Source: a virus (Duplodnaviria > Heunggongvirae > Uroviricota > Caudoviricetes). Taken from it: a DNA stretch of 39,494 nt. The stretch spans positions 1 through 39,494 of IMG/VR virus record IMGVR_UViG_2711768073_000020; one strand, 5' to 3'. Made by a program: the position numbers and the translations under genes. Of this stretch, positions 1,369 to 22,808 are shown piece by piece. The notes under the pieces are model-generated. The model was not told where the DNA came from, did not search any database, and worked only from the letters and a program-made list of their open reading frames with translations. Every line of letters begins with the position of its first letter. Position 1 is the stretch's first letter.

Positions 1369-1444
1369 GCCGATATAGCTCAGTTGGTAGAGCAGCGCAT
1401 TCGTAATGCGAAGGTCGTAGGTTCGACTCCTATTATCGGCACCA
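1369..1444 (+). tRNA. thrW: tRNA-Thr (anticodon CGT)
   Basis: 76-nt sequence GCCGATATAGCTCAGTTGGTAGAGCAGCGCATTCGTAATGCGAAGGTCGTAGGTTCGACTCCTATTATCGGCACCA: D-loop AGCTCAGTTGGTAGAGC, anticodon loop TTCGTAA, T-loop GGTTCGACTCC, encoded CCA end. Confidence 0.93.
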
Positions 1445-13907: not shown

Positions 13908-14849
13908 TTAGTCTCTGCTAGCGAGCTCATACTGTGCAAGATAGTTCGCGTTATCAATTTTAGCAGATATCATCGCCGTTCTGATATCAGAATCGGATGG
14001 ATAACCGCTTTTGACAATGATTGTCTTTGTACTGACCAATACTTGGTCAAGTAGACTTTTGGGCGTTCTATTGGATGGCTCTGTTACATCAATTTTTTTA
14101 ATTTTTAGACCTCCAGAACCTTTTGGAAAAAGTTCAAGTAGTTCCTTAATAGCATCGGTGACAGAAGTTTTTAGATAGTTAAAACCTTGTTTTTTCGGGC
14201 GAATCCGACCTCGCATATTTAATCTTAGATGCGACCCGCCCATACCAACAACCATGTCAATAATTTCATTAGCTAAAGGGTTTTTAATCTTATAATTAGC
14301 TTTGTTAAAGTTTCTTGGAGCAGCAACTATAAGATCGAAACTACGTAGGATATTTCCGTCCTCAAGCAGTTCCTTCATGCTCTCTTGTTTCCAAATGGCT
14401 TCAAAAGTGACGCTTTTTAAATCAGTTTTGTTATACAAAATGAATGCCAGATCATTTACTTTGGGCCCTATATGGTTGAGGGTCATAGCTAATAAGTCCG
14501 TTTCGTAGTAATAGATAAAATATGTTCTTTCAACTACAGAATCTTTATCATTTAAAGGAATTGTTCTCTCACTACCTGTAGCATCCTCGATGAACGGTAG
14601 TAGGCATTCCCTTCTCCACGATACGTAACCAAAGTAACATTGCAGTGTGGTATCTTTTTGAAGAATAACTAACTTTAACCCTCGATTTGGGGTGTCTGTT
14701 GTGTAAGTTATTGGAAAAGTTACAGTATCTGCTGTGGTCATTTGCTCAAAGGCTAGTTTTGCAGCAGATGTGCCATCTTTTTTGCTTCCATTACCAGTGA
14801 AAAAACCAACTCTCACTCGCCTGGTTTTATTCTTATTTTCTGTACTCAT
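13908..14849 (-). CDS. 313-aa soluble protein of unknown function, co-operonic with the 4-TM protein (candidate RexA-like sensor)
   Basis: Basic N-terminus (KNKTRRVRV); no enzymatic motif recognised; AT-rich coding sequence, antisense to all flanking phage genes; candidate promoter on the minus strand upstream (TTGTTG...TAAAAT). Confidence 0.6.
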   Translation of the reverse strand: MSTENKNKTRRVRVGFFTGNGSKKDGTSAAKLAFEQMTTADTVTFPITYTTDTPNRGLKLVILQKDTTLQCYFGYVSWRRECLLPFIEDATGSERTIPLNDKDSVVERTYFIYYYETDLLAMTLNHIGPKVNDLAFILYNKTDLKSVTFEAIWKQESMKELLEDGNILRSFDLIVAAPRNFNKANYKIKNPLANEIIDMVVGMGGSHLRLNMRGRIRPKKQGFNYLKTSVTDAIKELLELFPKGSGGLKIKKIDVTEPSNRTPKSLLDQVLVSTKTIIVKSGYPSDSDIRTAMISAKIDNANYLAQYELASRD

Positions 14850-15145: not shown

Positions 15146-15472
15146 ATGCCTCATAACCCAAATACCTGGCTGGAGTTGGTCCAGAGCTGGTGGCGTGGAG
15201 ACACACCGCTGGGCGCAGTGATTATGTCGATCGTTATGGCTGGCTTGCGCATTGCCTATTTTGGCGGTGGTGGTGGCTGGAAACGAAAAACGCTCGAGAT
15301 TTTGCTCTGTGGTGCTCTGACGCTGACTTTTGCATCCGCTCTTGAGTATGTCGGATGGCCTAAATCTCTTTCTGTTGCCATTGGTGGCGGCGTTGGGCTG
15401 ATCGGGGTCGATGCTATTCGTGGGGCTGCAATGAGAGTAATCGGTAATAAGTTTGGTGGCTCTAAGGAGTAA
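15146..15472 (+). CDS. Holin, 108 aa
   Basis: Small protein with hydrophobic helices (LGAVIMSIVMAGLRIAYF; LEILLCGALTLTFASALEYVGW; AIGGGVGLIGV) and a charged C-terminus, immediately upstream of the endolysin. Confidence 0.7.
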   Translation: MPHNPNTWLELVQSWWRGDTPLGAVIMSIVMAGLRIAYFGGGGGWKRKTLEILLCGALTLTFASALEYVGWPKSLSVAIGGGVGLIGVDAIRGAAMRVIGNKFGGSKE

Positions 15473-15475
15473 TTT

Positions 15476-15952
15476 ATGCAGGTACTAAATTCCCAGCGTA
15501 AAGCTTTCCTGGATATGGTGGCATGGTCAGAAGGAACGGATAACGGGCGACAACCGACACGTAACCACGGTTATGACGTTATTGTCGGTGGCGAACTCTT
15601 CACTGATTACTCCGATCACCCTCGCAAACTTGTCACGCTAAACCCGAAACTCAAATCAACAGCTGCAGGCCGTTATCAACTTCTTTCACGTTGGTGGGAT
15701 GCTTACCGCAAGCAGCTTGGGCTGAAAGACTTCTCTCCCAGAAGCCAGGACTCAGTGGCATTACAGCAGATTAAAGAGCGTGGCGCTTTACCGATGATTG
15801 ATCGCGGCAATATTCGTCAGGCAATCGACCGTTGCAGCAATATCTGGGCGTCTTTACCTGGTGCAGGTTACGGTCAGTATGAACATAAAATTGGCGACCT
15901 GATTTCCCGGTTTAAAGAGGCTGGTGGGGTGGTAAATGAAGCTGAGATATAA
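15476..15952 (+). CDS. R: Endolysin, lambda R-type lytic transglycosylase, 158 aa
   Basis: NSQRKAFLDMVAWSEGTDNGRQPTRNHGYDVIVGGELFTDYSDHPRKLV... is near-identical in pattern to lambda R. Confidence 0.9.
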   Translation: MQVLNSQRKAFLDMVAWSEGTDNGRQPTRNHGYDVIVGGELFTDYSDHPRKLVTLNPKLKSTAAGRYQLLSRWWDAYRKQLGLKDFSPRSQDSVALQQIKERGALPMIDRGNIRQAIDRCSNIWASLPGAGYGQYEHKIGDLISRFKEAGGVVNEAEI

Positions 15953-16328
15953 GCTGGTTATTGTTGCCTTCTTTGTTACCGTCATTGGTTCCTTCATCTG
16001 GTCTGCCGGGCATTACTACAGCAAATATCTGCACGAAAAGGAGCGTGCTGATGAGGCTATACGAAATGCTGAATCAGCAACTGCCATTACCCGTAACGTT
16101 CTGCAATCACTGCAAATCATCAATACAGTTATAGAGGCTAACCAGCATGCAAAACAGCAGATTGCACTGGAGTCACAGAAAACCCAGGAAGATATCAAAG
16201 TGGCTGTTGCGGATGATGATTGTGCTTCACGTCCTGTGCCTGCTGCCGCTGCTGACCGGTTGCGGAAGTACGCGGACAGTTTACGTGAACACTCCGGCGG
16301 TACCACTGCCAGCCAGCTTGACTTCTGA
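15936..16328 (+). CDS. i-spanin (Rz-like), 130 aa
   Basis: N-terminal TM anchor (LVIVAFFVTVIGSFIW) followed by charged helical region; overlaps the endolysin end; an o-spanin ORF starts inside it in another frame. Confidence 0.6.
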   Translation: MKLRYKLVIVAFFVTVIGSFIWSAGHYYSKYLHEKERADEAIRNAESATAITRNVLQSLQIINTVIEANQHAKQQIALESQKTQEDIKVAVADDDCASRPVPAAAADRLRKYADSLREHSGGTTASQLDF

Positions 16329-16461
16329 TACACCTGTACCGTTTATACCCAACCCACTGACGTATGGTGCAAGTCTTGATTTGAATGTAAGTTTGTTATC
16401 CGCGTTGGCTCAATGTAATAGGGATAAGTCTGATATCAGAATCATTGATAATCAAAATTGA
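16213..16461 (+). CDS. o-spanin (Rz1-like) lipoprotein, ~82 aa
   Basis: Signal peptide plus lipobox MMIVLHVLCLLPLLTGC, Pro-rich mature part; starts inside Rz in a different frame and extends 133 nt beyond its stop. Confidence 0.6.
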   Translation: MMIVLHVLCLLPLLTGCGSTRTVYVNTPAVPLPASLTSDTPVPFIPNPLTYGASLDLNVSLLSALAQCNRDKSDIRIIDNQN

Positions 16462-16664
16462 TGTATATTTTTATCGTCATGTAGATAACGAACAAGGTAT
16501 TCCTCTGATACGTTTCGTTGAATACAGGTCATGGGTAGGCATTGCAATATCGCTTCGAAATTATCTGTGATAATGCTCTTAATTTTGAATGTATGTATTT
16601 GGGAAAAGAGATAAAGTAATAGTCTAATTAATGGAGATATCCACAAAACACAAAAGGGACTATT

Positions 16665-17171
16665 ATGCGACCAGATCAATTTTTCTATCCAGATACTTTT
16701 ACCTTTAATTCATCCACCTATTATGGTCAACGTGACTCATCTAAAGGTCGATTGTATATTCCTATTGAAAGTGACTTATGTCCATTTAATATCGGCGATA
16801 TCATTGTGCAAAAAATGGTCGACAGGGAAAGACTATTTGAAGTGCTTGATTACGAGGTGCAAATTAGTCTCGAGGCTGGTTGCCCTGGCTACTCACATTT
16901 GGCGGTATTGATAGTGAATGCATTGGATGTAAAAGAGAAGCCGAAGCAGATTACGACCCATTTGACGTTTAACGGTGCTATTAATGCTGGTGGTGATTTT
17001 CAAGCCGGTAATGACAATTCGATCACAAAGAATATAACCATTCAACAACTACATGATGCTATAGAGCATTGCAATGATCCAGAGGTTAAAAGCCTTTGGC
17101 AAAAGCTATTGGAAAATCCGACGTTTGCTTCAATTGCTTCAATATTGGCAAAAAGTGCTTTAGGACAGTAA
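16665..17171 (+). CDS. Hypothetical cargo protein, 168 aa (AT-rich, between lysis and packaging genes)
   Basis: AAGGGA RBS 6 nt upstream; preceded by a ~200-bp AT-rich spacer and followed by its own terminator; no signal peptide or motif recognised. Confidence 0.5.
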   Translation: MRPDQFFYPDTFTFNSSTYYGQRDSSKGRLYIPIESDLCPFNIGDIIVQKMVDRERLFEVLDYEVQISLEAGCPGYSHLAVLIVNALDVKEKPKQITTHLTFNGAINAGGDFQAGNDNSITKNITIQQLHDAIEHCNDPEVKSLWQKLLENPTFASIASILAKSALGQ

Positions 17172-17180
17172 TTCATCAAG

Positions 17181-17202
17181 CCCCATTCAATATGGGGTTT
17201 TT
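17181..17202 (+). terminator. Intrinsic terminator after the 168-aa gene
   Basis: CCCCAT-tcaat-ATGGGG followed by TTTTT. Confidence 0.65.
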
Positions 17203-17228
17203 ATGCTTATTACAAAGAGTTTTCTTCA

Positions 17229-17579
17229 ATGCCACCACGAACTCCAAAAGCCTGCCGTGTTCGCGGGTGCCGCCGTACCACCACTGACCCGTCAGGTTAT
17301 TGCGAAAGCCACAAAAGCGAAGGCTGGAAGCAATACAAGCCAGGACAATCCCGTCATCAGCGCGGCTACGGTTCGAAGTGGGACGTTATCCGCGCGCGTG
17401 TGCTGAAACGTGACAAAGGTTTATGTCAGTTATGTCTGCGCGCTGGTGTGGTGCGTGAGGCGAAAACTGTTGACCACATCATCCCTAAAGCGCATGGCGG
17501 CACTGATGCCGACTGTAATCTGCAGAGTCTGTGCTGGCCGTGTCATAAGGCGAAGACGGCCCGTGAACGGTTGAAGTGA
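17229..17579 (+). CDS. HNH endonuclease (terminase-associated), copy 1, 116 aa
   Basis: Cys-rich zinc motifs (CRVRGC...CESH) and HNH core (DHIIPKAHGGTDADCNLQSLCWPCH); 5' part only ~88% identical to copy 2 at the DNA level. Confidence 0.8.
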   Translation: MPPRTPKACRVRGCRRTTTDPSGYCESHKSEGWKQYKPGQSRHQRGYGSKWDVIRARVLKRDKGLCQLCLRAGVVREAKTVDHIIPKAHGGTDADCNLQSLCWPCHKAKTARERLK

Positions 17580-17704
17580 TAATAATTCTCAACTGCCTGA
17601 GGGGAGGGGCGGGTCAAATCCCTGCGGCCTGACGTCTTCCGGACTGCCCGCCCCATCGTTTTTTTATACCCGCGAAAAATGAAATTTAACCAGGAGTGCC
17701 GCAT
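17580..17704. other. Candidate cos / packaging region between HNH and TerS (copy 1)
   Basis: GC-rich dyad GGGGCGGG...CCCGCCCC followed by TTTTTTTATAC; in HK97-type phages cos lies between the HNH gene and the small terminase gene. Confidence 0.3.
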
Positions 17705-18190
17705 ATGGCTGGAACGGCGGGGCGTTCCGGGCGTCGCCCCAAGCCAACGGCGCGCAAGGCGCTGGCCGGAAACCCCGGCAAGCGAGCCCTGAATAAAGAT
17801 GAACCTGTTTTTACGCCCATCAAAGGTGTTGAGCCACCGGAATGGTTCGCTGAAGAAGATCTCCCTCTCGCTACGATCATGTGGCAACTGACAACTAAAG
17901 AACTCTGCGGTCAGGGCCTGCTGTGCGTGACTGACCTCGCGGTGCTTGAGCGGTGGTGCGTGGCCTATGAGTTCTGGCGACGTGCCGTGAAAAATATTGC
18001 CAGCCAGGGCAACACCATTACCGGTGCAATGGGCGGTATGGTCAAAAACCCGGAGCTGACCGCCAAGAAAGAACAGGAGTCCGAGATGAGCAGCACGGGG
18101 GCAATGCTCGGACTCGACCCCAGCAGCCGCCAGCGTCTGATTGGCCTGGCGGGGAAGAAGAAAGCCACTAACCCGTTTCTGACAATCTGA
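17705..18190 (+). CDS. Terminase small subunit (P27 family), copy 1, 161 aa
   Basis: [14 protein letters not shown]... with AGGAG RBS 8 nt upstream of ATG 17705; protein identical to copy 2. Confidence 0.75.
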
Positions 18191-18203
18191 AAATCATCGA
18201 ATC

Positions 18204-18388
18204 ATGAGCCGGAAATCTTACCCCAACGTAAATGCTGCCAATCAGTATGCCCGGGATGTCGTGCGCGGAAAGATTGTGGCCTGCCAGTTTGTGATTCAGG
18301 CCTGCCAGCGCCATCTTGATGACCTGATGGCGGAAAAAAGTAAGTCGTTTCGTTACCGCTTCGACAAGGATCTGGCTGAACGGGCCGC
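18204..18388 (+). pseudogene. Terminase large subunit, 5' fragment (first ~62 codons) truncated at an IS3 junction
   Basis: Matches the first ~185 nt of the intact TerL gene at 21075 and diverges after 18388, where IS3-derived sequence begins. Confidence 0.8.
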
Positions 18389-19038
18389 ATTCCACGCAGA
18401 TTATGCCGCTTCAGTTGCGCCTGATAATCTGCTGAACAGTACTGGCCTCCACGGTCCGTGTGAACGATAACGTTCCGGGGCCTCTTACGCCGCCACAGCG
18501 CCATCTGCAGGGCATCGCAGGCCAGTTGCGCCGTCATGCGTGGCGACATTGACCAGCCAATAACGGCACGTGACCACAGGTCAATGACCACTGCCAGATA
18601 CAGCCAGCCTTCATCTGTACGTAAGTACGTGATGTCTCCTGCCCACTTCTGGTTCGGGCCACTGGCGTAAAAATCCTGCTCCAACAGATTTTCTGACACA
18701 GGCAGGCCGTGTGCGCGGTAGCTGACCGGGCTGAACTTCCGGGAGGCCTTTGCCCTCAGTCCCTGACGGCGCAGGCTTGCCGCCACGGTTTTTACGTTAA
18801 AGGGGTAACCCTGAGCACGCAGTTCATCCGTCAGGCGTGGGGCACCGTAACGCTGTTTTGACCGGGTAAAAGCCGCGAGGACAACGCTGTCGCAGTGTTG
18901 GCGGAACTGCTGACGCGTGCTTATCCTTGTCCGCCGCTGACACCACGTATACCAGCCGCTGCGGGCCACCCGGAGCACGCGGCACATTGCTTTGATGCTG
19001 AACTCAGCCTGATGTTTTTCAATAAAGACATACTTCAT
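18389..19038 (-). pseudogene. insF: IS3 transposase InsF (OrfB), 3'-truncated
   Basis: [36 protein letters not shown]...QLKRHNLRG matches IS3 InsF, then reads into non-IS DNA. Confidence 0.8.
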
Positions 19039-19334
19039 TTCAGGCGCTTCGCGAAGTATGTCGCGGCCTTTTGGAGGATAGCCAGCTCTTCATCCCGTTC
19101 TGCCAGCTGGCGTTTGAGACGTGCAATCTCGGTAGACATCTCCAGTTCACGTTCAGAAGACGTCTGCTGATTTTGCTGTTTACTGCGCCAGTTGTAGAGC
19201 TGTGATTCATACAGGCTGAGTTCACGGGCTGCGGCAGTAACACCGATGCGTTCAGCAAGCTTCAGGGCTTCACTGCGAAATTCAGGCGAATGCTGTTTAC
19301 GGGGTTTTTTACTGGTTGATACTGTTTTTGTCAT
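19035..19334 (-). CDS. insE: IS3 InsE (OrfA), 99 aa
   Basis: [54 protein letters not shown]... from ATG 19334. Confidence 0.85.
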
Positions 19335-19396
19335 GTGAGTCACCTCTGACTGAGAGTTTACTCACTTAGCCGCGTGTCCACTATTGCTGGGTAAGA

Positions 19397-19570
19397 TCAC
19401 TCATCACGTATTTGTGTTTCATGTTTGCGATTGTAGAAGTAGCCATTCAGTTCATTTAACTTTTTATGCATCCTATCGTGACTAATTGCTTCGATCAGTA
19501 AATCCTGAATCATACTTTTCTCTAGGTAATCCGAACGGTTGTAAGTGACAGTATTGTGCTGGCATGTCAT
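19397..19570 (-). pseudogene. Small ORF (57 codons) whose stop codon is supplied by the IS3 terminus; probable IS3-truncated gene
   Basis: Minus-strand ORF MTCQHNTVTYNRSDYLEKSMIQDLLIEAISHDRMHKKLNELNGYFYNRKHETQIRDE ends with the TGA of the IS3 end TGATCTTACC; no clear RBS. Confidence 0.3.
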
Positions 19571-19613
19571 TAATATGTAAAGGTATTGTGAATGCCAGAA
19601 AGATAACGAAGTA

Positions 19614-19949
19614 TCATCGATAGAAAAACTTTACAGCCCACTCGTAAACAGCTTTGTAAATCGGTTCATGGTAAATACTATCGATACTATTCAGATGTGC
19701 GATCATCGCCTCCACAGTTGTAGTGGTTGTTTCTAATATTTCGATTATTGCAGGGCGGTCATCATCTTCATCGAAGTATTCGAACAGCAGTACAGGTTTA
19801 CCATGCAATTCAGCATCTGAGACTCTAAGGTTACAACTACCGCTCAACTCAAAGTGAATTTTGTAATTACCTTCTACAGAATGGCCTACGGGGAAAAAGT
19901 ATAGGGTGTCATCTTTGTTCAAAAGCCATGCCCATTCATAACTATTCAT
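19614..19949 (-). CDS. Hypothetical acidic protein, ~111 aa (AT-rich island between the IS3 fragment and packaging module 2)
   Basis: AGGAG 7 nt upstream of ATG 19949; poly-Thr/acidic stretch (DEDDDRPAIIEILETTTTT). Confidence 0.45.
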   Translation of the reverse strand: MNSYEWAWLLNKDDTLYFFPVGHSVEGNYKIHFELSGSCNLRVSDAELHGKPVLLFEYFDEDDDRPAIIEILETTTTTVEAMIAHLNSIDSIYHEPIYKAVYEWAVKFFYR

Positions 19950-20099
19950 TTGTGAACTCCTGTTCATTGAGTTTCAACAACTATCAACTACATCCAGCGA
20001 AGCATAAAAGATCGTTTATGGCAAAACCGGAATGGAGTGCGATTCGATTCTGAGAAGGGTGCCACGTATCGTACGCGAACCATCCAAGAGGATTATGCA

Positions 20100-20450
20100 A
20101 TGCCCCCACGAACCCCAAAAGCCTGCCGCGTTCGCGGCTGCCGCCATACCACCACTGACTCGTCAGGCTATTGCGAAAGCCACAAAAGCGAAGGCTGGAA
20201 GCAATACAAGCCAGGCCAGTCCCGACACCAGCGCGGTTATGGTTCGAAATGGGATGTTATCCGTGAACGTGTGCTCAAGCGTGACAAAGGCCTGTGCCAG
20301 TTGTGCCTGCGTGCTGGTGTGGTGCGCGAGGCGAAAACCGTTGACCACATCATCCCTAAAGCGCATGGCGGCACTGATGCCGACTGTAATCTGCAGAGTC
20401 TGTGCTGGCCGTGTCATAAGGCGAAGACGGCCCGTGAACGGTTGAAGTGA
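20100..20450 (+). CDS. HNH endonuclease (terminase-associated), copy 2, 116 aa
   Basis: Same HNH motifs as copy 1; AGAGGA RBS 7 nt upstream of ATG 20100. Confidence 0.8.
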   Translation: MPPRTPKACRVRGCRHTTTDSSGYCESHKSEGWKQYKPGQSRHQRGYGSKWDVIRERVLKRDKGLCQLCLRAGVVREAKTVDHIIPKAHGGTDADCNLQSLCWPCHKAKTARERLK

Positions 20451-20575
20451 TAATAATTCTCAACTGTCTGAGGGGAGGGGCGGGTCAAATCTCTGCGGCC
20501 TGACGTCTTCAGGACTGCCCGCCCCATCGTTTTTTTATACCCGCGAAAAATGAAATTTAACCAGGAGTGCCGCAT
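20451..20575. other. Candidate cos / packaging region between HNH and TerS (copy 2)
   Basis: Same GC-rich dyad and T-tract as copy 1 with 3 substitutions. Confidence 0.3.
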
Positions 20576-21061
20576 ATGGCTGGAACGGCGGGGCGTTCCG
20601 GGCGTCGCCCCAAGCCAACGGCGCGCAAGGCGCTGGCCGGAAACCCCGGCAAGCGAGCCCTGAATAAAGATGAACCTGTTTTTACGCCCATCAAAGGTGT
20701 TGAGCCACCGGAATGGTTCGCTGAAGAAGATCTCCCTCTCGCTACGATCATGTGGCAACTGACAACTAAAGAACTCTGCGGTCAGGGCCTGCTGTGCGTG
20801 ACTGACCTCGCGGTGCTTGAGCGGTGGTGCGTGGCCTATGAGTTCTGGCGACGTGCCGTGAAAAATATTGCCAGCCAGGGCAACACCATTACCGGTGCAA
20901 TGGGCGGTATGGTCAAAAACCCGGAGCTGACCGCCAAGAAAGAACAGGAGTCCGAGATGAGCAGCACGGGGGCAATGCTCGGACTCGACCCCAGCAGCCG
21001 CCAGCGTCTGATTGGCCTGGCGGGGAAGAAGAAAGCCACTAACCCGTTTCTGACAATCTGA
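20576..21061 (+). CDS. Terminase small subunit (P27 family), copy 2, 161 aa
   Basis: Identical protein to copy 1; immediately followed by the intact large subunit. Confidence 0.8.
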
Positions 21062-21074
21062 AAATCATCGAATC

Positions 21075-22808
21075 ATGAGCCGGAAATCTTACCCCAACGT
21101 AAATGCTGCCAATCAGTATGCCCGTGATGTCGTGCGCGGAAAGATTGTGGCCTGCCAGTTTGTGATTCAGGCCTGCCAGCGCCATCTTGATGACCTGATG
21201 GCGGAAAAAAGTAAGTCGTTTCGTTACCGCTTCGACAAGGATCTGGCTGAACGGGCCGCCAAATTTATTCAGCTGTTGCCGCACACCAAGGGTGAGTGGG
21301 CATTCAAGAGGATGCCCATCACGCTGGAGCCGTGGCAGCTCTTTGTGATCTGCTGCGCGTTTGGCTGGGTCAATAAAGGCTCCCGGCTGCGCCGCTTCCG
21401 TGAGGTGTATACCGAAATCCCCCGTAAGAACGGCAAATCGGCAATCTCTGCCGGTGTCGCCCTGTATTGTTTTGCCTGTGATAACGAGTTCGGCGCGGAA
21501 GTGTATTCCGGTGCCACGACGGAGAAACAGGCATGGGAAGTCTTTCGTCCGGCAAGACTGATGTGTAAACGCACACCCATGCTGACGGAAGCGTTCGGGA
21601 TTGAGGTTAACGCCTCAAACATGAACCGTCCGGAGGATGGCGCGCGGTTTGAACCGCTGATCGGCAACCCCGGTGATGGTTCATCACCCCACTGTGCCGT
21701 GGTGGATGAATATCACGAGCACGCCACCGATGCGCTTTATACCACAATGCTTACCGGGATGGGGGCGCGACGTCAGCCACTGATGTGGGCCATCACCACC
21801 GCCGGGTACAACATTGAGGGGCCGTGCTACGACAAGCGGCGGGAAGTCATCGAGATGCTCAACGGCTCGGTGCCTAACGATGAACTGTTCGGGATCATCT
21901 ATACCGTTGATGAAGGTGACGACTGGACCGACCCGCAGGTGCTGGAAAAAGCCAATCCAAATATTGGCGTATCGGTTTATCGCGAATTTTTGTTAAGTCA
22001 GCAGCAGCGTGCGAAAAATAACGCCCGTCTGGCAAACGTCTTTAAAACAAAACACCTCAATATCTGGGTGTCGGCACGTTCGGCGTATTTCAACCTGGTG
22101 AGCTGGCAGAGCTGCGAGGATAAATCACTGACCCTTGAGCAGTTCGAGGGGCAGCCGTGCATTCTGGCCTTTGACCTGGCGCGTAAGCTGGATATGAACA
22201 GCATGGCGCGACTTTATACCCGCGAGATTGACGGTAAAACGCATTACTACAGTGTGGTCCCGCGCTTCTGGGTACCGTATGACACGGTGTACAGCGTCGA
22301 GAAAAATGAAGATAGACGGACAGCCGAACGCTTTCAGAAATGGGTGGAAATGGGCGTCCTGACCGTTACCGATGGTGCAGAGGTGGATTATCGCTACATC
22401 CTCGAAGAGGCCAAAGCGGCGAACAAAATCAGCCCGGTCAGTGAGTCACCCATCGACCCCTTCGGGGCGACCGGGCTGTCACATGACCTTGCTGATGAAG
22501 ATCTGAATCCCGTCACTATCGTCCAGAACTTCGCCAATATGTCCGATCCGATGAAAGAGCTGGAAGCAGCGATTGAATCGGGACGCTTTCATCATGACGG
22601 CAATCCCATCATGACCTGGTGTATCGGCAATGTGGTCGGCAAAAACATGCCAGGTAACGATGATTTAGTGAAGCCCGTCAAGGAGCAGGCGGAAAACAAA
22701 ATCGATGGTGCGGTTGCACTGATTATGACGATCGGTCGGGCAATGCTCAAAGAACCTGACGATTTCCTCTCATCTCTTGATCCGGACGATGATCTCTTAA
22801 TTCTATGA
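21075..22808 (+). CDS. Terminase large subunit, 577 aa
   Basis: Size and position after TerS; N-terminal ATPase region with Walker A-like EIPRKNGKS and C-terminal nuclease region. Confidence 0.9.

What the first reader, a model, noticed from the sequence alone, without database searches (positions are those of the whole stretch)
16462..17205. Single-gene cargo cassette with its own AT-rich upstream region and terminator between lysis and packaging genes
The 168-aa ORF (16665..17171) is preceded by ~200 bp of very AT-rich spacer and a good RBS and followed by a clean intrinsic terminator (17181..17202), i.e. an autonomously expressed unit inserted between Rz/Rz1 and the HNH gene. The protein has no signal peptide or motif I recognise. 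Lysogen-expressed genes in this slot are often superinfection-exclusion, defence or virulence factors.
Basis: partly seen in the sequence, partly recalled or inferred. Interest (0 to 1): 0.5.

Follow-up and report, generated by a model that had tools for sequence, protein, structure and literature searches.

The report
Prophage cargo gene with RHIM-like motif
A small self-contained gene dropped between the lysis and packaging genes of an E. coli prophage encodes an uncharacterised protein whose wider family, carried by phages and phage satellites, joins a swappable front domain to a conserved motif resembling the amyloid "RHIM" switch of animal cell-death signalling, so it is a plausible but untested anti-phage suicide or exclusion factor.

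Summary
ORF 16665-17171 is a real, conserved gene on a low-GC segment (33-43% against about 50%) that replaces 26 bp of phage SfV, and a strong terminator follows it. Only a promoter is unproven. Just 29 of 940 E. coli genomes with the flanking HNH gene carry the segment. Relatives lie in unrelated phage backbones, often antisense to their neighbours, so this is a classic mobile "moron".

The protein has no Pfam, NCBIfam or PADLOC match (PHROG 5789, unknown function). It has four parts: a β-barrel (residues 1-90), a low-confidence stretch, two or three helices and a C-terminal tail.

In a wider family of 78 representative clusters the front domain is swapped while the rear module is kept. That module has a near-invariant φ-Q-φ-G-N-x-N motif, helices, and a Gly/Ala-rich hydrophobic tail. 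The motif resembles RHIM/BASS3 only below threshold. However, adjacent genes share it, as in amyloid-signalling pairs, once with an AbiTii abortive-infection protein.

Canonical members are the lone antisense cargo gene of capsid-forming PICI satellites.

Best reading (about 0.4): a sensor, assembly-motif and membrane-tail defence protein. The window's own copy has a degenerate motif (FQAG) and a weaker tail. Function is untested.

The parts
16421..17228 (.). Segment absent from phage SfV (it replaces the last ~40 bp of Rz1 and the 26-bp Rz1-HNH gap); low-GC cargo island
   Evidence: blastn against SfV: homology ends at 16420 and resumes at 17229. GC is 33-43% against about 50% in the flanks.
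16462..16664 (+). AT-rich upstream spacer (203 bp, about 33% GC); presumed promoter region, unproven
   Evidence: No consensus sigma-70 site on the + strand.
16566..16574 (+). Best candidate promoter element: extended -10 TGtGATAAT, with no good -35; sits inside the small palindrome TTATCtgtGATAA
   Evidence: Read and scored; not better than shuffles (P = 0.58). Inference only.
16654..16659 (+). Shine-Dalgarno-like AAGGGA, 5 nt upstream of the ATG
   Evidence: Sequence.
16665..17171 (+). CDS, 168 aa (same sequence as RefSeq WP_032249113 in E. coli QDFD216); PHROG 5789
16665..16934 (+). Residues 1-90: six-stranded small β-barrel domain (proposed specificity or sensor domain)
16962..17042 (+). 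Residues 100-126, LTFNGAINAGGDFQAGNDNSITKNITI: diverged copy of the family's N/Q/G-rich φ-Q-φ-G-N-x-N motif (core FQAGNDN at 16998-17018)
   Evidence: Q113, A114, G115 and N118 are invariant in the subfamily. Q is kept in 42/45, G in 45/45 and N in 44/45 of the wider family. AF2 pLDDT is below 50 over residues 91-118. RHIM-like only at sub-threshold level.
17043..17168 (+). Residues 127-168: helices (QQLHDAIEHCNDPEVKSLWQKLLEN) and C-terminal tail TFASIASILAKSALGQ
   Evidence: AF2 helices 126-134, 139-150 and 152-166. The helices are the most conserved part at 77% identity. Tail mean hydrophobicity is 0.46 here against 0.66 in canonical relatives.
17178..17205 (+). Intrinsic terminator (9-bp stem, 5-nt loop, T-run)
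15936..16461 (+). Left flank: Rz (15936-16328) and the embedded/overlapping Rz1-like lipoprotein gene (ends at 16461)
   Evidence: PGAP annotation of the identical E. coli locus.
17229..17579 (+). Right flank: HNH endonuclease gene, followed by the small terminase gene

Best explanation
The cassette is a mobile moron. Its product is a one-protein, prophage- or satellite-borne defence factor built as sensor, assembly motif and membrane-active tail.

Proposed mechanism (all steps inferred): the N-terminal β-barrel binds a component of an incoming or competing phage. Binding frees the disordered N/Q/G-rich φQφG-N-x-N motif to self-assemble, in a RHIM/BASS-like, possibly cross-β manner. Assembly clusters the conserved C-terminal helices and the small-residue hydrophobic tail at the inner membrane. 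The membrane is then compromised, or an essential membrane step is blocked, which aborts the infection.

Shown: the cassette anatomy, its mobility and autonomy, the domain layout, the modular front-domain swapping, the motif conservation, the sharing of the motif by neighbouring genes, and the phage/satellite habitat.

Inferred: sensing, assembly, membrane action, and the defence phenotype.
For: 1. Moron anatomy and sporadic presence.

2. The gene travels alone between unrelated backbones and is always 39-42% GC in 49-57% GC surroundings. It is found after the lysis cassettes of other siphophage- or myophage-like prophages (L007, L023-L025). It lies antisense between the portal and terL genes of BPP-1-like podophages (L008, L026). 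It lies antisense between an SLT tail gene and a primase gene in Serratia. It lies antisense between the capsid and primase genes of capsid-forming PICI-like islands in Klebsiella and E. coli.

3. A profile search of 1.84 billion representatives finds only 78 clusters. Many share only residues ~88-168, behind unrelated front domains: Zn-ribbon, helical/wHTH, or another ~170-aa domain.

4. The rear module is the conserved part. Q, G, N, D, K and N are near-invariant across 45 diverse members. Within the window's subfamily, the motif is 68% and the helices 77% identical, against 54% for the barrel.

5. Motif sharing between neighbouring genes, the hallmark of amyloid-signalling pairs. An AbiTii-domain protein (Pfam E 2e-42) ends in NVNIGSITGHQVQLGNNNTQ and lies 25 bp upstream of a Zn-ribbon + TFNIGSISSQQVQVGNNNNQ + helices + tail protein. 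Tandem paralogues occur in L030 and L033. About 259-aa motif-bearing partners occur in Enterobacter-type islands. Two paralogues sit in the two moron slots of a single prophage, L024.

6. Reciprocal weak RHIM similarity. The Pfam RHIM model hits this motif in family members (best E 0.0015; 12 bits at RHIM positions 8-19). The family motif HMM scores the human RIPK3 and RIPK1 RHIM peptides at about 17 bits, against 6 bits for the best background among 8818 ORF segments.

7. AF2 gives pLDDT below 50 exactly over the motif.

8. Canonical tails (TVASIVGAGASALLGLL) are membrane-like, with a 17-residue Kyte-Doolittle mean of 1.5-2.0 and <H> of 0.66.

9. Precedent: the E. coli Bab/Agp system kills infected cells through a shared 20-aa amyloid motif and a membrane-targeting domain, and it sits in prophage hotspots (bioRxiv 10.1101/2024.11.07.622273).

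10. The same slot in phage SfII holds a PADLOC PDC-S45-like candidate defence gene.
Against: No experiment or transcript data exist. There is no hit in PADLOC for the window protein, for 67 relatives, or for the Klebsiella form.

The RHIM similarity is below Pfam's threshold. It is not recovered from the PDB with default filters.

The window's subfamily has the weakest version of both key elements. Its core is FQAG rather than VQVG. Its tail contains Lys and has a 17-residue Kyte-Doolittle mean of only ~0.7-1.2, so membrane insertion is doubtful for this copy.

The window holds no second motif-bearing gene.

The neighbourhood census shows phage structural genes, not known defence genes.

The C-terminal module of typical AbiTii proteins has the same layout but no detectable homology (hhalign probability 12%).
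Confidence: 0.4

Rival explanations
1. Non-lethal superinfection exclusion. The protein is tethered to, or associated with, the cytoplasmic face of the inner membrane by its C-terminal tail. It blocks DNA entry or an early step of incoming phages without killing the cell. In this reading the conserved motif is simply an oligomerisation strand.
For: It has moron anatomy and a prophage/satellite habitat. It has a C-terminal hydrophobic or amphipathic tail and no N-terminal signal. From my own knowledge, not checked here: prophage morons such as HK97 gp15 act in this way.
Against: A tail-anchored topology leaves the globular domain in the cytoplasm, away from the entry site. It does not explain the extreme conservation of the N/Q/G motif, nor the sharing of that motif with an AbiTii-type partner. 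The window copy's tail is only weakly hydrophobic.
Confidence: 0.2
2. Counter-defence decoy. Like the RHIM proteins of herpesviruses, the phage protein uses a diverged copy of the motif (FQAG, weak tail) to cap or poison motif-driven assemblies. Its targets would be host- or satellite-encoded family members, for example the canonical VQ[VI]G proteins of cf-PICIs, or Bab/Agp-like systems.
For: The window subfamily combines a conserved but altered core with a tail of low hydrophobicity. Canonical members exist in E. coli satellites that parasitise phages: 5 genomes carry the full gene, and 76 of 5426 genomes match at least the rear-module part of it. An FQAG-type and a VQVG-type gene co-occur in prophage L024. 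Viral RHIM decoys are an established principle (cited).
Against: Anti-defence genes are usually early genes; this one sits at the late end with its own terminator. The FQAG subfamily is also found antisense in podophages and a Serratia prophage, like ordinary cargo. No interaction data exist. Whether this motif equals BASS11 could not be tested, because the Bab sequence is not in the held text.
Confidence: 0.1
3. Accessory lysis or head-assembly protein of the phage itself, co-transcribed with the late operon. The location beside Rz/Rz1 and a barrel resembling head-closure proteins would then reflect a structural or lysis-timing role.
Against: It is absent from SfV and from 911 of the 940 E. 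coli genomes that match the flanking HNH region. It is antisense to the structural operons in podophages and cf-PICIs. Its GC content is foreign. It shows no sequence relation to the resident head-closure protein (hhalign probability 0.1%). Foldseek is not significant. The front domain is replaced by unrelated domains in relatives.
Confidence: 0.07

Closest known systems
Bab/Agp amyloid-signalling abortive-infection system of E. coli (BASS11 motif; Ibarlosa et al., bioRxiv 10.1101/2024.11.07.622273)
   Same: Enterobacterial and carried in prophage-associated hotspots. A ~20-residue Gly/Asn-containing motif is shared by products of adjacent genes, and a small helical part with a hydrophobic helix is proposed to target the membrane. 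Bab residues I87-G88-S89-V90 recall the NIGS[IV] start of this family's motif.
   Different: Bab has its helical Bell-type domain at the N-terminus and the motif at the extreme C-terminus, and it needs the 1094-aa TPR-GreA/B-PIN sensor Agp. Here the motif is internal and the hydrophobic helix is C-terminal. A small β-barrel precedes the motif, and most loci have one gene only. Identity of the two motifs could not be tested.
RHIM (RIPK1/RIPK3, viral M45/ICP6) and the related bacterial BASS3 and fungal PP motifs
   Same: The core is φ-Q-φ-G followed by x-x-N, flanked by Asn and β-branched residues, in a region predicted to be disordered. Dyrka et al. define the class by G-φ-Q-φ-G. The weak profile hits are reciprocal.
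   Different: Scores are below Pfam's gathering cut-off (12 bits against 20). The upstream Gly sits two residues further away than in G-φ-Q-φ-G. BASS3 is described in Actinobacteria and Cyanobacteria on Bell/NLR pairs, not in phages of Gammaproteobacteria. Amyloid formation is untested here.
AbiTii-domain abortive-infection proteins (Pfam PF18864; L. lactis AbiT)
   Same: One AbiTii-domain protein carries this family's motif at its C-terminus and is followed by a family member. Typical ~300-aa AbiTii proteins end in a module with the same layout: a short N/Q/G motif, helices, and a Gly/Ala hydrophobic tail.
   Different: The window protein has no AbiTii domain. The two C-terminal modules are not detectably homologous. 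The AbiTii pairing was seen once.
Phage morons (promoter-gene-terminator units between late genes, as defined for HK97/HK022/lambda; my own knowledge of Juhala et al. 2000, not checked here)
   Same: A single gene with deviant GC content and its own terminator, inserted between conserved late genes, and sporadically distributed among otherwise syntenic phages.
   Different: The promoter is not demonstrated in this window.
Phage head-closure/stopper proteins (e.g. SF1141, PDB 2kz4) and PilZ barrels
   Different: Identity is 6-14%. There is no profile similarity to the resident head-closure protein. The PilZ RxxxR and D/NxSxxG motifs are absent (read). Foldseek E is 0.09 or worse.

Membership tests
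Phage moron | Single gene inserted between conserved genes of otherwise syntenic phages | tested here: met
   SfV has 26 bp where the window has 808 bp. Only 29 of 940 E. coli genomes with the flank carry it.
Phage moron | Base composition different from the surrounding genome | tested here: met
   33-43% GC against about 50%. The same offset is seen in 8 contexts.
Phage moron | Own transcription terminator | tested here: met
   (z = -5.3). Also present in L005, L007, L008 and L023.
Phage moron | Own promoter, active in the lysogen | tested here: inconclusive
   No site beats shuffles in the window. Antisense placement of relatives implies a promoter travels with the gene. A -10-like hexamer recurs 37-42 nt upstream of the ATG in most other contexts. 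No transcript data are available.
RHIM (Pfam PF12721) | Match to the RHIM profile at or above the gathering score (20 bits) | tested here: not met
   The window protein has no hit even at E <= 10. Relatives give at best E 0.0015, and 12.1 bits for P0095.
RHIM (Pfam PF12721) | Core tetrad [IV]-Q-[IVLC]-G with a downstream Asn | tested here: met
   Wider family: [VIF]-Q-[VIA]-G-N-x-N, with Q in 42/45, G in 45/45 and N in 44/45. The window has F-Q-A-G-N-D-N. The RIPK3 sequence was verified from PDB 7dac.
RHIM (Pfam PF12721) | Forms amyloid / hetero-amyloid | not testable with these tools
   Needs ThT/EM or cell foci assays, or multimer modelling.
Bacterial amyloid-signalling gene pair (BASS; Dyrka et al.; Bab/Agp) | The same short motif in the products of adjacent genes | tested here: inconclusive
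   Met in relatives (L029, L030/L033, L038, the L051 group). Not met in the window, which has a single motif-bearing gene. About 50 of 64 related loci are also single-gene.
Bacterial amyloid-signalling gene pair (BASS; Dyrka et al.; Bab/Agp) | Motif terminal (C-terminus of the effector, N-terminus of the sensor); effector with a Bell/HeLo-type domain; sensor an NLR or TGP protein | tested here: not met
   The motif is internal (residues 100-126 of 168). No Bell, NLR or TPR domains were found.
Bacterial amyloid-signalling gene pair (BASS; Dyrka et al.; Bab/Agp) | Sequence identity of the motif with BASS11 | not tested
   The Bab/Agp sequences are not in the held text or supplements.
Known anti-phage defence systems (PADLOC-DB v2) | Profile match to a catalogued defence protein | tested here: not met
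   No match for the window protein. The 67 relatives give only three isolated single-member hits, to PDC-S53, C3a205 and PDC-M14B. The Klebsiella form gives none.
PilZ c-di-GMP receptors | RxxxR and [D/N]xSxxG binding motifs on the barrel | tested here: not met
Phage head-closure (stopper) proteins | Sequence or profile relationship, and a place in the head-tail operon | tested here: not met
   hhalign probability 0.1% against the resident protein. No Pfam hit. The gene lies outside, or antisense to, the structural operons.
Holins / lysis accessory proteins | Transmembrane helices or a signal/lipobox; constant association with lysis cassettes | tested here: not met
   There is no N-terminal hydrophobic segment, and the only hydrophobic stretch is the C-terminal tail. 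The gene is found away from lysis genes in podophages and cf-PICIs.

The most novel reading that the evidence does not exclude
This gene belongs to an undescribed class of single-polypeptide, necroptosis-like abortive-infection proteins spread by temperate phages and capsid-forming PICI satellites of Gammaproteobacteria. An exchangeable sensor domain controls a RHIM/BASS-type amyloid switch, which in turn activates a C-terminal glycine-zipper membrane tail. Paralogues, and an AbiTii-type sensor, would plug into the same switch through the shared motif. The diverged FQAG forms, such as the one in this window, could be either specialised effectors or phage-encoded antagonists of the canonical forms.
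Probability: 0.22. Interest if true: 0.85.

Novelty: new variant of a known kind. Interest (0 to 1): 0.55.

Why it matters
If the proposed mechanism is right, RHIM-like amyloid switching, so far shown in bacteria only for the two-gene Bab/Agp system, would also exist as a compact one-gene module. Phages and satellites would trade that module and re-target it by swapping a 90-residue front domain.

That would give a very small and tractable model (168 aa) for how a cross-β motif couples recognition to membrane damage.

It would assign a function to the only cargo gene of many E. coli and Klebsiella capsid-forming PICIs.

It would add a family that current defence catalogues (PADLOC) miss.

Even if the mechanism is wrong, the family is a clean example of a moron moving between unrelated phage backbones.

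Tried and rejected
1. Direct annotation. Pfam, NCBIfam and PADLOC gave nothing; PHROGs gave only an unknown-function family.

2. The 4708-aa and 1793-aa "homologues" (P0025, P0094). These are giant Big_9/cadherin adhesins. Their DFFGTDTFEYT repeats match the PDxFFYPDTFTF start of the barrel many times over. The hits are spurious and were rejected.

3. Barrel as a PilZ domain or as a duplicated head-closure protein. The binding motifs are absent, there is no profile similarity, and Foldseek is not significant. BFVD was uninformative.

4. Homology of the rear module to the C-terminal module of ~300-aa AbiTii proteins. The layout is the same, but hhalign probability is 12%, so it is kept as an analogy only.

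5. PDB sequence search with the rear-module and motif profiles. Nothing relevant appeared at E <= 10 with default filters. RIPK RHIM peptides score about 17 bits only with filters off.

6. Word-indexed search with the rear-module profile. It returned mostly fragments and no new architectures.

7. Genome scan with the close family. There was no hit in one-genome-per-species GTDB. Broad alignment A4 was too diverse for pattern scans, so A5 was used instead.

8. tblastn of the module against phages and plasmids. It was largely masked by the low-complexity filter.

9. Promoter prediction. It was not discriminating.

10. Retrieving the Bab/BASS11 sequence from the paper. It is not in the held text or supplements.

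11. Rfam. Nothing was found in or near the cassette.

12. The afdb50 fold library was unavailable.
Full report
**Setting**

The window is an SfV-like prophage of E. coli with an HK97-type head and a Mu-type contractile tail. It is integrated beside tRNA-Thr(CGT) at 1369-1444. It is 94-99% identical over most of its length to a prophage of E. coli QDFD216, and 100% identical over the query around the finding.

The gene order around the finding is:
- holin, 15146-15472
- endolysin, 15476-15952
- Rz, 15936-16328
- Rz1, ending at 16461
- the target ORF, 16665-17171
- HNH, 17229-17579
- small terminase, 17696-18190

**Observation**

- The spacer 16462-16664 is 203 bp at about 33% GC. The gene is about 39% GC and the flanks about 50%.
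- AAGGGA lies 5 nt before the ATG.
- The terminator at 17178-17200 plus its T-run folds at -15.8 kcal/mol (z = -5.3).
- Phage SfV has only 26 bp between Rz1 and HNH. Homology to SfV ends at 16420 and resumes exactly at the HNH start codon, 17229.
- Among 5426 complete E. coli genomes, 940 match the flanking HNH region but only 29 carry the cassette.

The one element that could not be verified is a promoter. The consensus scan finds none on the + strand of the spacer. The best hand-picked site, the extended -10 TGtGATAAT at 16566-16574, is no better than shuffled sequence.

**It is a mobile, autonomous unit**

The close family comprises 22 clusters at 48-98% identity. In every context examined the gene is 39-42% GC inside 49-57% GC DNA.

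| Context | Placement |
|---|---|
| Other prophages (L007, L023-L025) | After the lysis cassette, same strand as its neighbours |
| BPP-1-like podophages (L008, L026) | Between portal and terL, opposite strand |
| Serratia prophage | Between an SLT tail gene and a DUF927 primase, opposite strand |

A terminator follows the gene in most of these contexts. A -10-like hexamer recurs 37-42 nt before the ATG. Antisense placement inside late operons requires the gene to bring its own promoter. That is the best available argument for autonomy.

The slot itself is variable:
- SfV has it empty.
- SfII has IS911 plus a 206-aa gene that matches PADLOC candidate PDC-S45 at E 1.5e-32.
- The window's own duplicated HNH copy is preceded by a different low-GC ORF.

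**The protein**

There is no Pfam, NCBIfam or PADLOC match. It matches PHROG 5789, of unknown function.

AlphaFold2 on the 22-sequence alignment gives mean pLDDT 74:
- a confident six-stranded β-barrel over residues 1-90 (pLDDT 80-92)
- a low-confidence stretch over residues 91-118 (pLDDT below 50)
- helices at 126-134, 139-150 and 152-166

- Foldseek is not significant against the PDB or BFVD.
- hhalign sees no relation to the resident head-closure protein.
- The PilZ binding motifs are absent.

I treat the fold as a generic small barrel. The neck-protein resemblance is only a lead.

**The wider family**

An exhaustive profile search of 1.84 billion representatives finds only 78 clusters. Many share only residues ~88-168, attached to unrelated front domains: a Zn-ribbon, helical or wHTH domains, and a ~170-aa α/β domain.

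Across 45 diverse members the rear module reads [IFY]-N-I-x-G-S-[IV]-x-G-x-x-Q-[VIF]-Q-[VIA]-G-N-x-N-[TS]-Q-x-x-N-I-T-I-QELVEKVAKS-x-D-PEAK-SLLKKLLEN-x-T-VASIVGAGASALLGLL. Q is kept in 42/45 members, G in 45/45, N in 44/45 and D in 45/45.

The window's subfamily aligns column for column but is diverged:
- The motif is LTFNGAINAGGDFQAGNDNSITKNITI, with Q113, A114, G115 and N118 invariant.
- The tail is TFASIASILAKSALGQ, and it is less hydrophobic. Its 17-residue Kyte-Doolittle mean is 0.7-1.2, against 1.5-2.0 in canonical members. Its <H> is 0.46 against 0.66.

Within the subfamily the motif is 68% and the helices 77% identical, which is more conserved than the barrel at 54%. A variable front with a constant rear is the pattern of a specificity domain driving a common effector.

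**Is the motif RHIM-like?**

The core φ-Q-φ-G-x-x-N is the RHIM tetrad pattern. The RIPK3 sequence VQVGDNN was verified from PDB 7dac, and RIPK1 has IQIGNHN in 8ib0. It is also close to the G-φ-Q-φ-G signature that Dyrka et al. use to unite RHIM, fungal PP and bacterial BASS3.

Statistically the link is weak in both directions.
- Pfam's RHIM model hits this motif in a few relatives, but below threshold. The best E is 0.0015. P0095 residues 113-124 match RHIM positions 8-19 at 12 bits against a cut-off of 20. It never hits the window protein.
- The family motif HMM scores the RIPK3 and RIPK1 peptides at about 17 bits with filters off. The best unrelated hit among 8818 ORF segments scores 6 bits. 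With default filters nothing appears at E <= 10 in the PDB.

I therefore call the motif RHIM-like in pattern and do not file it as RHIM.

**Independent support for a homotypic signalling motif**

A motif-only HMM run over all fetched loci shows that neighbouring genes share the motif.

- On contig L029, an AbiTii-domain protein (Pfam E 1.9e-42) ends in ...NVNIGSITGHQVQLGNNNTQHKKTAKR. A family member (Zn-ribbon + TFNIGSISSQQVQVGNNNNQ + helices + tail) follows it 25 bp downstream.
- L030 and L033 carry tandem paralogues with different front domains.
- Enterobacter-type islands carry a ~259-aa upstream partner with a diverged motif and no tail.
- Prophage L024 carries two paralogues, one in each of its two moron slots.

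Shared short motifs in adjacent gene products are the defining signature of amyloid-signalling pairs. In E. coli such a pair, Bab/Agp, was shown to cause abortive infection through a 20-residue amyloid motif and a membrane-targeting domain.

AbiTii is an N-terminal domain of abortive-infection proteins that is normally fused to HEPN or other C-terminal modules. Most close AbiTii homologues (~300 aa) end in a module of similar layout: an NFQGVLGNV motif, helices, and a Gly/Ala-rich tail ending in ...KFYGL. hhalign finds no homology between that module and this family's rear module (probability 12%).

About 50 of 64 related loci, and the window itself, hold a single family gene. The protein must therefore usually work alone.

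**Habitat**

Canonical relatives were recovered from 19 GTDB species and from 45 viral contigs. The species are mostly Gammaproteobacteria:
- Shewanella
- Marinomonas
- Vreelandella
- Kluyvera
- Pluralibacter
- Enterobacter
- Pseudomonas
- Psychrobacter

A Pfam census of 118 neighbouring ORFs is dominated by phage structural and regulatory genes: 10 major capsid genes, 4 prohead proteases, 3 portals, Ogr/Delta and an integrase.

In E. coli, Klebsiella, Kluyvera and Enterobacter, the gene is the lone opposite-strand gene between the major capsid gene and the primase. The islands are 14-18 kb and ordered int-alpA-primase-...-capsid-protease-portal-connector-HNH-terS-terL. That is the capsid-forming PICI layout (described).

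**Mechanism and rivals**

The best-supported reading (confidence about 0.4) is a one-protein defence factor. The barrel recognises a phage cue. The N/Q/G motif drives self-assembly. The conserved helices and tail act at the membrane to abort or block infection. Only the architecture and its comparative genomics are shown; every mechanistic step is inferred.

| Rival | Confidence | Main point |
|---|---|---|
| Non-lethal exclusion | 0.2 | Same habitat and tail, but does not explain the motif conservation or sharing |
| Phage-encoded decoy of canonical family members or Bab/Agp-type systems | 0.1 | Attractive because this subfamily has an altered core and a weak tail |
| Lysis or assembly accessory | 0.07 | Disfavoured by sporadic presence, antisense contexts, foreign GC and front-domain swapping |

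The remaining probability is "something else".

**Novelty and score**

The cassette as such is an ordinary moron. What is new is the family behind it:
- It is uncatalogued and spread by phages and satellites.
- It pairs a modular front domain with a RHIM/BASS-like motif.
- It has a layout different from known amyloid-signalling proteins. The motif is internal, the hydrophobic tail is C-terminal, and most loci have a single gene.

I rate it a new variant of a known kind, with interest 0.55. The score is tempered by the sub-threshold motif statistics, by the degenerate state of the window's own copy, and by the absence of any functional data.

Noticed in passing
window 17215-18388 and 20086-21259; IS at about 18200-19380: HNH + small terminase + the first ~190 bp of terL are present twice (96.8% identical). 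The first terL copy is cut by an IS3-family element (orfB 18202-19038, orfA 19035-19343, minus strand). Only the second copy runs into a full terL (21075-22808). This suggests an IS-associated rearrangement or recombination between two related prophages.
   Followed up: partly
window 19384-20085: A second low-GC island (36-42% GC) lies directly upstream of the second HNH copy, with a 117-aa ORF on the minus strand (19614-19967). It is a different cargo in the equivalent slot. There is no PADLOC hit; Pfam was not run on this ORF.
   Followed up: partly
window 13908-14849 (minus strand): A 313-aa ORF at 34-40% GC sits in the Q-to-holin slot, antisense to the late operon, with no Pfam or PADLOC match. 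The otherwise near-identical prophage of E. coli QDFD216 has an 'SDH family Clp fold serine proteinase' gene there instead. This is another exchangeable cargo position.
   Followed up: partly
L003 2309-2929 (phage SfII, gene SfII_57): In phage SfII the Rz1-HNH slot holds IS911 plus a 206-aa gene that matches the PADLOC candidate defence family PDC-S45 (E 1.5e-32). SfV has the slot empty.
   Followed up: partly
L100 7001-7513 (E. coli ET670, next to fis); L099 4707-5213 (E. coli SMS-3-5); L028 3614-4126 (Klebsiella pK15-KPC): Canonical relatives of the target protein are the single opposite-strand gene between the major capsid gene and the primase of capsid-forming PICI-like islands. 76 of 5426 complete E. 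coli genomes match at least the rear-module part of such a gene.
   Followed up: partly
P0114-P0191 (AbiTii homologues), last ~110 residues: Most ~300-aa AbiTii-domain proteins (Burkholderia, Pseudomonas, Stenotrophomonas and others) end in a conserved module outside the Pfam AbiTii model. It reads N-I-x-I-x-NFQGVLGNV, then helices around D-P-E-P, then a Gly/Ala-rich hydrophobic tail ending in ...AAGxLLAxAIxKFYGL. It looks like an undescribed effector or assembly module.
   Followed up: partly
L039 4025-4627, L093 7090-7704, L095 7095-7697: A ~200-aa protein with an N-terminal transmembrane helix recurs immediately upstream of family members in two clusters. It has a faint PADLOC LeoBC hit (E 6e-4).
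   Followed up: no
window 1369-1444: tRNA-Thr(CGT) lies next to the prophage integrase end and is the likely attachment site.
   Followed up: no
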